Below, piece by piece: positions 29,897 through 32,800 of a stretch of DNA of 64,000 nt (its first letter is position 1; every line of letters begins with the position of its first letter). Under the pieces are notes generated by a model. The model searched no databases. It saw nothing but the letters and a program-made list of their open reading frames with translations, and was not told the DNA's origin. A program made the translations under genes and the position numbers. Origin of the DNA: Candidatus Bathyarchaeota archaeon (lineage in GTDB: Archaea; Thermoproteota; Bathyarchaeia; 40CM-2-53-6; RBG-13-38-9); contig CAWECG010000003.1 in NCBI GenBank assembly GCA_963807605.1, forward strand, positions 1,024,001 through 1,088,000, read 5' to 3'.

Positions 29897-32800
29897 ACCA
29901 TGCATAGGCCTTCAACGCGAAATCGATGTGGGTTCCTGAGCAAACTTGGCATGATACGCCACCTGATGGATGGCTTGGCTTGGGCGCTGATGAAGGGCGT
30001 GGCAAGCTGCGATAAGCTCCGGGTAGGCGCACGCAGCCTTCGATCCGGAGATGCCCTAATGGGACTTCCTGCTGCAGGTAATACTGCAGCACTCCTAATA
30101 GGAGTGGTAACCCCCCGAACGGAAACATCCAAGTAGGGGGAGGAAGAGAAATCAACCGAGATTCCCTGAGGTAACGGCGAGTGAAAAGGGAAGAGTCCAA
30201 ACTGAACCTGCATAGGAAACTATGTAGGGATGTGGTGTTGTAGGGCCCGACCGCGCTCTCGCCTGTGAAGTTGAAGTGGCCTGGAACGGCCTGCCATAGA
30301 GGGTGAGAGCCCTGTAGACGTAAGCAGGCAGAGTTTGGGTTGGTGTCCCTGAGTACTATGCTTTGGTTCAGGCATAGGAAGCTGGGAGGAAACAACTTCC
30401 AAGACTAAATACGTCCCAAGACCGATAGCGCACCAGTACCGTGAGGGAAAGCTGAAAAGCACCCCGGAAGGGGGGTGAAAAGTGCCTGAAATCAGGTGGT
30501 TACAGACGTGTACGGTCTGAAAGAGTAGATCCCATTCAAAGGAAACCTTAGCAATATGGGAGTACGAGGATGGGGGATCAGGATCGTACGTTCCGTTTTG
30601 TACCACGGGCCGGGGAGTTCATCTTCGTGGTGAGGTTAAGGGTTCAAAGCCCGAAGCCGTAGGGAAACCGACGGTCCGCAGCACTGGATAATCCGGTGCA
30701 AGGGACGGGATCTGAAAGGGTCCGGAATCACGGGGATGATACTAGAAACCGGGTGATCTAGCCTTGGGCAGGGCGAAGCCCAGCGAAAGCTGGGTGGAGG
30801 CCCGAAGGGATGTTGACGTGCAATTCACTCCTCTGACCTGAGGCTAGGGGCAAAAGACCAATCTAACCCGGTGATAGCTAGTTCCCGCCGAAATATCTCG
30901 CAGGATAGCCCAGCCGGAGGCTTCTGGCAGGGTAGAGTACTGATTGAGAAGCAAGGAGCCGAAAGGCTCTCCTTTTCGTTCAAACTCCGAATATGCCAGA
31001 ACCGTAGAAGGCTGGAGACGGGCATGGGGCGTAAGGTCCTATGTCGCGAGGGGAACAACCCAAACTAAGGTTAAGGTCCCAAAATCCTAGCTAAGTGTAG
31101 AAATCGAAGGTTGTCCTCAACCAAAGACAGCTGGAAGGTAGGCTTAGAAGCAGCTATCCTCCAAGCAGTGCGTAACAGCTGACCAGCCGAGGTTGGGGGC
31201 GCCGAAAATAGACGGGGCTAAGCTAGGTACCGATACCCTAGAACACGGCAGTCGCCGTGTTGGTAGGCGGGCGTTGTGGTTGGGCGGAAGCTGGGCTGTG
31301 AGGTCCAGTGGACTGGCCACAAGTGTAGATCCCGGCGTCAGTAACAGCTAAGAGAAGTGAGAATCTTCTCCGTCGCAAGGGCAAGGGTTCCCCGGCAATG
31401 CGTCGTCAGCCGGGGGTAAGTCAATCCTAAGGGAAGCCGTAATTGAGCATCCCGAAATTAGGGAAACCGGTTAAGATTCCGGTACCACGGAGATACGTGC
31501 GGCAACGCAAGTCTGCAACCTGACACTTCAAGATAGGTTGAGTGGGGCTGTCGCCTCATTTAACCTCCTAAGCCCGGGGAGTACCGTAATGGTGAGAACC
31601 GGGCGAATGAGGGAATAGCCACCCGTTTAGGGTGGTTCAGCCGATGTCTAGGAGTCAATGAAAAGGGCTGCAGAAAGGAGTCTTCGTGTCCGTACCAAGA
31701 ACCGACACAGGTGCCCTAGGTGAGAAGCCTCAGACGTATCGGGTCCAACTCAGGGCGAGGGAACTCGGCAAATTAGCCCCATAACTTCGGAATAAGGGGT
31801 GCCTGAAGCCTTGGCTTAGGCTGGGGTTTCAGGTCGCAGTGACAAAGGGGAGGCGACTGTTTAATAAAAACATAGGTGGCCGCAAGCCCGAAAGGGTGTG
31901 TACGGCCGTTGAGTCCTGGCCAGTGGTGGTACCTAAAACTTGGGTCCAACCGAGCTAAGGGCCACTAAACGCCGGGAGTAACTCTGACTCTCTTAAGGTA
32001 GCCAAATGCCTTGTCGTGTAAGTTACGACGTGCATGAATGGACCAACGACCCCCCCGCTGTCCCCGCCTGGGGCCCGGTGAACCCACATAACTTGGACGA
32101 ACAGTCCAGGATCTCCCAGCGGGGCGAAAAGTCCCCGTGGAATTTTACTGCAACTTGCTGCTGGGGTGTGACTGCGGGTACAGAGTGTAGGTGGGAGCCT
32201 TCGAACCATCCTCTCCGGGGGGTGGGGAGGCGCCAATGTAACACCACCTATCTGTGGTTATATCTCTAACCGGAGACAACTCCGATACAACGGCAGGCAG
32301 GCAGTTTGGCTGGGGCGGCACCCCCTTGAAAAGATATCAAGGGGGCCCTAAGCTCGACTCATCCGGGACAGAAATCCGGAGTAGAGGGCAAGACCAAAAG
32401 TCGGGCTGACTGGATCCTCCACAGCAAGGGATCCAGAGGCGAAAGCCGGGTCTAGCGATCATTCATGCCCTTTTGTTGGGGGCTGGATGTGACAGAAAAA
32501 CTACCCCGGGAGTAATTGGCTCGTCTCCTCCGAGAGTCCCTATCGACGAGGAGGATTGGTTCTCCGTCGTCGTCCCTTCCCATCCTGGGTCCGCAGCAGG
32601 GCCCAAGGGCGCGGCTGTTCGCCGATCAAAGGGGAATGCGAGATGGGTTTAGACCGTCGCGAGACAGGTCGGATTCTACCTGCTGGGAGTGCTGGTCGCC
32701 TGAGGGGAAGGCGCCCCTAGTACGAGAGGAACGGGGTATCGTAGCCTCTAGTTTACCGGTTGTCCGACAGAGCAGTGCCGGGCAGCCACGCTGTCGAGGA

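What the first reader, a model, noticed from the sequence alone, without database searches (positions are those of the whole stretch)
32120..32645. Highly divergent peptidyl-transferase centre in 23S rRNA
Aligned by eye to E. coli numbering (constant offset 30064 from 2447 to 2573, no indels): GGGAGTAATTGG gives G2447A, A2448G, C2452U and A2453U; GGTTCTCCGTCGTC gives A2497U, C2499U, U2500C, A2503U and U2504C; C2573U is at 32637; AAAAGTCCCC gives A2062U (32132) with A at 2058. A2450, A2451, G2505 and U2506 are retained. A2062 and A2503 normally contact each other at the tunnel entrance and both are U here, which suggests covariation. Several of these positions are known anisomycin, chloramphenicol or oxazolidinone resistance sites. 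Divergent PTCs are reported in some Thermoproteota such as Pyrobaculum; whether this combination is described is unknown to me. Inference: a remodelled active site with altered drug sensitivity.
Basis: partly seen in the sequence, partly recalled or inferred. Interest (0 to 1): 0.85.

Follow-up and report, generated by a model that had tools for sequence, protein, structure and literature searches.

The report
Rebuilt ribosome active-site shell, soil Bathyarchaeia
The only large ribosomal RNA gene of this uncultured archaeon keeps every base that touches the tRNAs but has replaced about a dozen normally conserved bases packed around the catalytic centre; every sampled member of its order shares most of them, so it is a natural and unusually extreme variant of a recently described kind, not an error.

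Summary
Observation confirmed base by base against E. coli rrlB. This is the genome's only 23S gene, full length, in a Bathyarchaeia member (probably order 40CM-2-53-6/Houtuarculales; name inferred). All 37 order sequences read (7 families) carry A2447, G2448, U2452, U2453, U2499, C2500, U/C2503 and C2504; 67 of 73 other class members are canonical. Catalytic and tRNA-binding bases are intact and neighbouring helices show compensated pairs. The proposed 2062/2503 covariation is not supported: all six combinations occur. What travels together is 2447/2453/2499 (113 of 113 rows) with C2504, in several separate lineages; one origin of U2452+U2453 is rejected (AU p=2e-5). No compensating uL3/uL4 change was found. 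The published Pyrobaculum type shares A2447, C2500, C2504 but uses C2453/A2501 and differs at 5-6 of 13 scored sites, against 12 here. The preprint's text does not mention Bathyarchaeia, 2062 or 2503. Drug resistance is plausible, untested. The scan noted this before on other DNA (e1-5299513) and in several DPANN groups.

The parts
29942..33002 (+). 23S rRNA gene, full length, only copy in the assembly
   Evidence: Rfam RF02540 2774.8 bits, model 1-2987; one match in the genome
32125..32133 (+). PTC 5' strand / tunnel entrance, E. coli 2055-2063: C2055, A2058 (family f1, 5 of 6), U2062 (order-wide); G2061, C2063 retained
32511..32517 (+). E. coli 2447-2453: A2447, G2448, U2452, U2453; U2449, A2450, A2451 retained
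32518..32562 (+). Helix 89, intact, with order-wide compensated swap G2464-C2486 to C-G; U2497 varies U/A within the order
32563..32570 (+). E. coli 2499-2506: U2499, C2500, U2503, C2504; C2501, G2502, G2505, U2506 retained
32571..32646 (+). Helices 90-92: U2509-A2579 (compensated), C2511.A2577 mismatch, U2573; A loop U2552-U2555 as in E. coli
32647..32666 (+). G2583, U2584, U2585 and A2602 unchanged
32313..32315 (+). P loop G2251-G2253 unchanged
29897..29913 (+). 5' arm of a 17-bp perfect processing stem around the 23S (3' arm 33031-33047)
28278..29778 (+). 16S rRNA gene of the same operon; decoding-centre segments conserved

Best explanation
A working 23S rRNA whose A-site-cleft shell has been re-packed by a linked set of substitutions fixed in the ancestor of the order. 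SHOWN: catalytic and tRNA-end bases are unchanged; the changes cluster at 2447-2453, 2497-2504 and the top of H90; they are order-wide; 2447, 2453 and 2499 change together in every lineage seen, always with C2504. INFERRED from published structures: the C2452.U2504 contact becomes U.C; the A2453.C2499 wobble becomes U.U (U.G or G.U in other lineages); A2447 keeps its hydrogen bond to A2451 as in Pyrobaculum; the short archaeal uL3 loop leaves room for C2504; U2509-A2579, C2511.A2577 and U2573 retune H90 behind 2504-2506. U2062, U/C2503, U2497 and A2058 are separate, tolerated changes added on top. Expected outcome: ordinary peptide-bond chemistry with a differently shaped A-site cleft and tunnel mouth, and probably reduced binding of cleft inhibitors (anisomycin, phenicols, oxazolidinones). 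It is a second structural solution beside the Pyrobaculum one, reached more than once in and around Bathyarchaeia.
For: Single full-length copy with a processing stem. 37 of 37 order sequences share the core; 67 of 73 others are canonical. Compensated pairs: 2509-2579 and 2464-2486 in 32/32, 2454-2498 G-C to A-U in 3, 2512-2574 in 5, 2589-2605 in 9. 2453/2499 states: AC 65, UU 41, UG 5, GU 2; 2447/2453: GA 65, AU 46, AG 2; five changes each on a PTC-masked tree. A scan that fixed only U2452 and C2504 returned hits whose newly read members all also had A2447, U2453 and non-C 2499. One clade for U2452+U2453 rejected, AU p=2.3e-5. Contacts 2452-2504, 2453-2499/2500, 2447-2451. uL3 PTC loop has no indel against other class members, release factor GGQ intact.
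Against: No structure or activity data. Only 3 independent pairs on well-supported branches, so co-evolution cannot reach significance (p=0.25). The tree rests on about 700 columns of 23S; deep branches are weak, and uL3+uL4 do not reject a joint origin of the order, f26 and f29 (AU p=0.064).
Confidence: 0.8

Rival explanations
1. The set was selected as escape from natural PTC inhibitors (anisomycin-, chloramphenicol- or pleuromutilin-like compounds); resistance is the cause, not a by-product.
For: G2447A, U2500C, U2504C are listed resistance alleles; C2452U gives anisomycin resistance in Halobacterium and chloramphenicol/tiamulin resistance in Thermus; A2062U is a macrolide allele. Changes cluster in the cleft and recur. 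Many order members come from soil and peat.
Against: The order also holds hot-spring members and is dated to about 2.5 Ga (if the order name is right). Effects of single alleles need not add up; U2500C and U2504C give no tiamulin resistance in Thermus. A2058 in this family is the macrolide-permissive bacterial state (own knowledge). No assay exists.
Confidence: 0.3
2. Compensatory drift: the archaeal PTC shell is tolerant (short uL3 loop, flipped 2504); one near-neutral change opens a narrow epistatic path that several lineages followed, with no adaptive gain.
For: 2062, 2448, 2497, 2503, 2504 rank as mutationally flexible in E. coli iSAT and A2062U keeps 94% activity. Intermediates exist: C2503 alone, U2503+C2504, partial sets in f26 and f29. 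Single states occur in 3-25% of archaea; U2453 is the eukaryotic state.
Against: The core is invariant in 37 sequences across 7 families, and the first steps (2453, 2500, 2504) are individually deleterious in E. coli and slow growth in halophiles.
Confidence: 0.45
3. Recurrence reflects exchange of short rRNA tracts between lineages rather than convergence.
For: In L171/L173 the PTC set sits in an otherwise f17/f30-type gene, and the H89 of L173 is identical to that of G037 (f26), which carries a similar set.
Against: That H89 is only 66-71% like the window's order and 86-91% like its own relatives; flanking states 2448, 2456/2495, 2503, 2509, 2511 match no single donor.
Confidence: 0.15
4. 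Sequencing or assembly error, chimera or pseudogene.
Against: Same bases in 36 other assemblies from different studies, only copy, compensated pairs, 23S tree places it in its own family as the genome taxonomy does.
Confidence: 0.01

Closest known systems
Divergent PTCs of Thermoprotei and Methanomethylicia; Pyrobaculum calidifontis cryo-EM (Nissley et al., bioRxiv 10.1101/2024.11.12.623245)
   Same: Variation in 2447-2453 and 2500-2504 around unchanged catalytic bases; G2447A, U2500C, U2504C shared. Sequences of that type read here also share C2055 and U2509-A2579, often G2448, and in one family U2062.
   Different: Here U2453 not C2453, C2501 kept (no A2501 Hoogsteen rearrangement), plus U2452, U2499, U/C2503, C2511, U2573, U2497, A2058: 12 of 13 scored sites against 5-6. 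Largely soil/peat lineages rather than hyperthermophiles. 'Bathy', '2062', '2503' do not occur in the preprint's text; its Fig. 2a could not be seen.
Laboratory PTC resistance alleles (G2447A, C2452U, U2500C, U2504C, A2062U) in halophiles, Thermus, yeast, E. coli
   Same: Same base changes at the same positions.
   Different: There single, selected, often costly; here about ten at once, fixed across an order.
Eukaryotic cytosolic PTC shell
   Same: U2453; U2499 and U2497 also in yeast (own knowledge, not tested).
   Different: Eukaryotes keep C2452, U2500, U2504 and A2055; here U2452, C2500, C2504, C2055.

Membership tests
Archaeal LSU rRNA (Rfam RF02540), functional gene | Full-length match with intact helices, universal tRNA-contact bases, operon context | tested here: met
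Divergent archaeal PTCs (Nissley et al.), broad sense | Lineage-fixed variation within 2447-2453 and 2500-2504 | tested here: met
Divergent archaeal PTCs (Nissley et al.), broad sense | A2450, A2451, G2505, U2506, U2585, A2602 unchanged | tested here: met
Divergent archaeal PTCs (Nissley et al.), broad sense | Short archaeal-type uL3 loop near 2572/2504 | tested here: inconclusive
   No indel against 22 other Bathyarchaeia uL3 and W finger kept; not aligned directly to E. coli or Pyrobaculum uL3
Divergent archaeal PTCs (Nissley et al.), broad sense | Rearranged base triples that keep catalytic geometry | not testable with these tools
   needs a structure
Pyrobaculum/Thermoprotei haplotype, strict sense | G2447A, U2500C, U2504C | tested here: met
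Pyrobaculum/Thermoprotei haplotype, strict sense | A2453C and C2501A | tested here: not met
   U2453 and C2501
Antibiotic-resistant ribosome | Reduced inhibition by PTC drugs | not testable with these tools
   only positional overlap with known alleles

The most novel reading that the evidence does not exclude
A second natural architecture of the A-site cleft (A2447, U2452, U2453, U/G2499, C2504), distinct from the solved Pyrobaculum one, arose independently three to five times in and around Bathyarchaeia, including non-thermophilic soil lineages, under selection by natural PTC inhibitors. This order is its most elaborated form and would be broadly insensitive to cleft-binding drugs; the natural intermediates map an epistatic path through positions that are individually deleterious in bacteria.
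Probability: 0.25. Interest if true: 0.75.

Novelty: new variant of a known kind. Interest (0 to 1): 0.5.

Why it matters
It widens the known sequence space of the most conserved catalytic site in biology: 12 of 13 scored shell positions differ, about twice the solved Pyrobaculum case, in a common soil and peat lineage, which argues against heat as the only cause. Natural intermediates (f25, f26, f27, f29, f31, L171/L173) give a ready series for testing epistasis and inhibitor escape in the PTC, useful for ribosome engineering and for understanding the specificity of A-site-cleft drugs.

Tried and rejected
2062/2503 covariation: rejected as an obligatory link. Compensation in proteins: no order-specific fixed change in the uL3 PTC loop (32 order vs 15 canonical genomes; four differences lie elsewhere) or in uL4; uL2 shows a few order-specific residues near 189-193 in a small sample (8 vs 6), uL22 sample too small, uL16 located but not compared. 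C/D box guide RNAs against the variant PTC: none found with a strict 10-nt scan. Hits in bacterial-titled records (L001, L014, L100) are 96-100% identical to order members, so they are mislabelled or misbinned, not bacterial cases; the Collinsella hit L174 is not rRNA. Blaha 2008, Gurel 2009, Davidovich 2008 and Bayfield 2004 were not held. Literature searches for a Bathyarchaeia PTC found nothing; the journal version of the Nissley paper and its figures could not be read. The archaeal rows 2447-2453 of that paper's supplementary table appear shifted by one position; I read them with that correction.

Full report
Observation. The stretch lies in domain V of a full-length archaeal 23S rRNA gene (29942-33002, RF02540, 2774.8 bits), the only copy in a 2.65-Mb, 94% complete assembly. 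Alignment to E. coli K-12 rrlB confirms the numbering (offset 30064 from 2436 to 2615; 30070 around 2060) and all eleven substitutions named. G2061, C2063, U2449, A2450, A2451, C2501, G2502, G2505, U2506, the P loop, the A loop, G2583-U2585, A2602 and the sarcin-ricin loop are unchanged. C2496U is the class norm. A 17-bp perfect inverted repeat brackets the gene.

Who has it. Exact-pattern scans of one genome per GTDB species returned Bathyarchaeia records, one related Thermoproteota record, three bacterial-titled records that are 96-100% identical to order members, and one chance hit. Reading 23S domain V from a class-wide sample: all 37 sequences of the window's order, in 7 families, have A2447, G2448, U2452, U2453, U2499, C2500, U or C at 2503, and C2504; U2062 in all 36 that cover it; U2573 and A2579 in all that cover them; 2497 is U or A; A2058 is limited to 5 of 6 in the window's family (one search found two named records with A2058+U2062, both of this family). 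Of 73 other class members 67 are canonical at 2447, 2452, 2453, 2499, 2500, 2503 and 2504. The changes are concentrated: 7 of 34 conserved PTC-loop columns against 7 of 347 elsewhere (p=5e-5). Compensated pairs within the order show selection on the fold. Error, chimera and pseudogene are excluded for practical purposes.

Covariation. A2062U alone keeps 94% activity in E. coli (PMC7049736) and is found in 9.9% of archaea; the A2062-A2503 pair forms on drug binding (PMC6467010). In contrast 2447, 2453 and 2499 are all canonical (65 rows) or all changed (48 rows), and A2447 always comes with C2504. The 2453/2499 couple takes A.C, U.U, U.G or G.U. A scan that fixed only U2452 and C2504 brought new lineages that all also had A2447, U2453 and a non-C 2499: the hot-spring B24 group (titled Bathyarchaeia in the records but filed outside this class by the genome tool), G037 (f26), and L171/L173, which nest among canonical families with good support. 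On a tree with PTC columns masked, one clade for U2452+U2453 is rejected (AU p=2.3e-5). Limits: five changes on the tree but only three independent pairs on starred branches (p=0.25); those extra rows were selected by pattern; a uL3+uL4 tree puts f26 next to the order (92/79) and does not reject a union with f29; short-tract exchange is possible for L171/L173 though not from this order.

Proteins. uL3 keeps its W finger and has no indel or order-specific fixed residue in the PTC-proximal loop; uL4 shows none either. The release factor has GGQ and NIKS. So the rRNA set appears self-compensated on an ordinary archaeal protein background.

Mechanism. Published contacts are C2452-U2504, A2453-U2500 or C2499, G2447-A2451, and A2055 stacking on U2504 in archaea. 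Every partner in that network is changed here. I infer a re-packed shell: U2452.C2504, U2453.U2499, A2447 still bonding A2451 as in P. calidifontis, C2055 under C2504, and an adjusted top of H90 behind it. Catalysis should be normal; the cleft where anisomycin, chloramphenicol and linezolid bind should differ. G2447A, U2500C, U2504C, C2452U and A2062U are known resistance alleles, but singles need not add, and A2058 points the other way for macrolides (own knowledge). I put compensatory drift at 0.45 and inhibitor selection at 0.3 as the cause.

Comparison with what is known. Nissley et al. (bioRxiv 10.1101/2024.11.12.623245) describe up to six variant positions in Thermoprotei and Methanomethylicia and solved P. 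calidifontis (A2447, C2453, C2500, A2501, C2504). In 40 Thermoproteota loci from outside the class that type differs at 5-6 of 13 scored positions, the B24 group at 9-10, the window at 12. The Pyrobaculum type also carries C2055 and U2509-A2579, so these accompany A2447/C2504 in both designs. The window fails the strict haplotype (no C2453, no A2501) but meets the broad definition. The preprint's text has no mention of Bathyarchaeia, 2062 or 2503; its table shows each single state in about 3-25% of archaea (A2447 3%, U2503 3.5%, C2500 8.5%, C2504 10%, U2062 10%, U2452 15%, G2448 18%, U2499 25%; rows 2447-2453 read with a one-position correction). I could not see its figure or the journal version. 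Four further literature searches found no description of this set.

Earlier scan notes. e1-5299513 reports the same thing in a hot-spring Bathyarchaeia genome that shares 68 of 121 words with this stretch; I checked the order-wide claim independently and reuse its word 'shell'. Other notes report similar shells in Aenigmatarchaeota, Parvarchaeum, Pacearchaeota, Micrarchaeota and a Brockarchaeota relative (unchecked), which suggests the phenomenon is common in archaea.

Verdict. Real, inherited, probably functional; a new and extreme variant of a known kind. Interest 0.5.

Noticed in passing
window 33100-33383 (+): Archaeal RNase P RNA begins about 100 nt after the 23S end, just outside the processing stem; no spacer tRNA and no 5S in the operon.
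   Followed up: partly
L035, L045, L046, L047, L048, L049, L006, L101, L103 at positions matching window ~31992 and ~32000: Several relatives carry inserts of about 300-1130 nt in 23S near E. coli 1925-1935, probably archaeal rRNA introns; the window has none.
   Followed up: no
window 33635-34354 (+): ORF matching only the C-terminal third of Cas1 (PF01867, profile 191-279), right after RNase P RNA; upstream frames look broken, possibly a decayed stand-alone or casposon-type Cas1.
   Followed up: no
window 28756-28775 (+): The 16S site of the common 515F primer differs from E. coli at two positions, so some primer versions may under-detect this lineage.
   Followed up: no
window 22033-22150 (+) and 59317-59408 (-): Two tRNA matches in Rfam that are longer than a plain tRNA and that ARAGORN missed; probably intron-containing.
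   Followed up: no
L106:7057-7848 (genome C3, uL2): uL2 of the order has W/K at 189/193 where other Bathyarchaeia have Y/R, just before the PTC-proximal loop; small sample (8 vs 6).
   Followed up: partly
L058 and L084 (G064): One other class member holds two very different 23S copies (82% and 78% to the query), one on a long branch; possible contamination or heterogeneity.
   Followed up: no
L001, L014, L100: Records titled as bacteria carry 23S genes 96-100% identical to this archaeal order: mislabelled or misbinned.
   Followed up: partly
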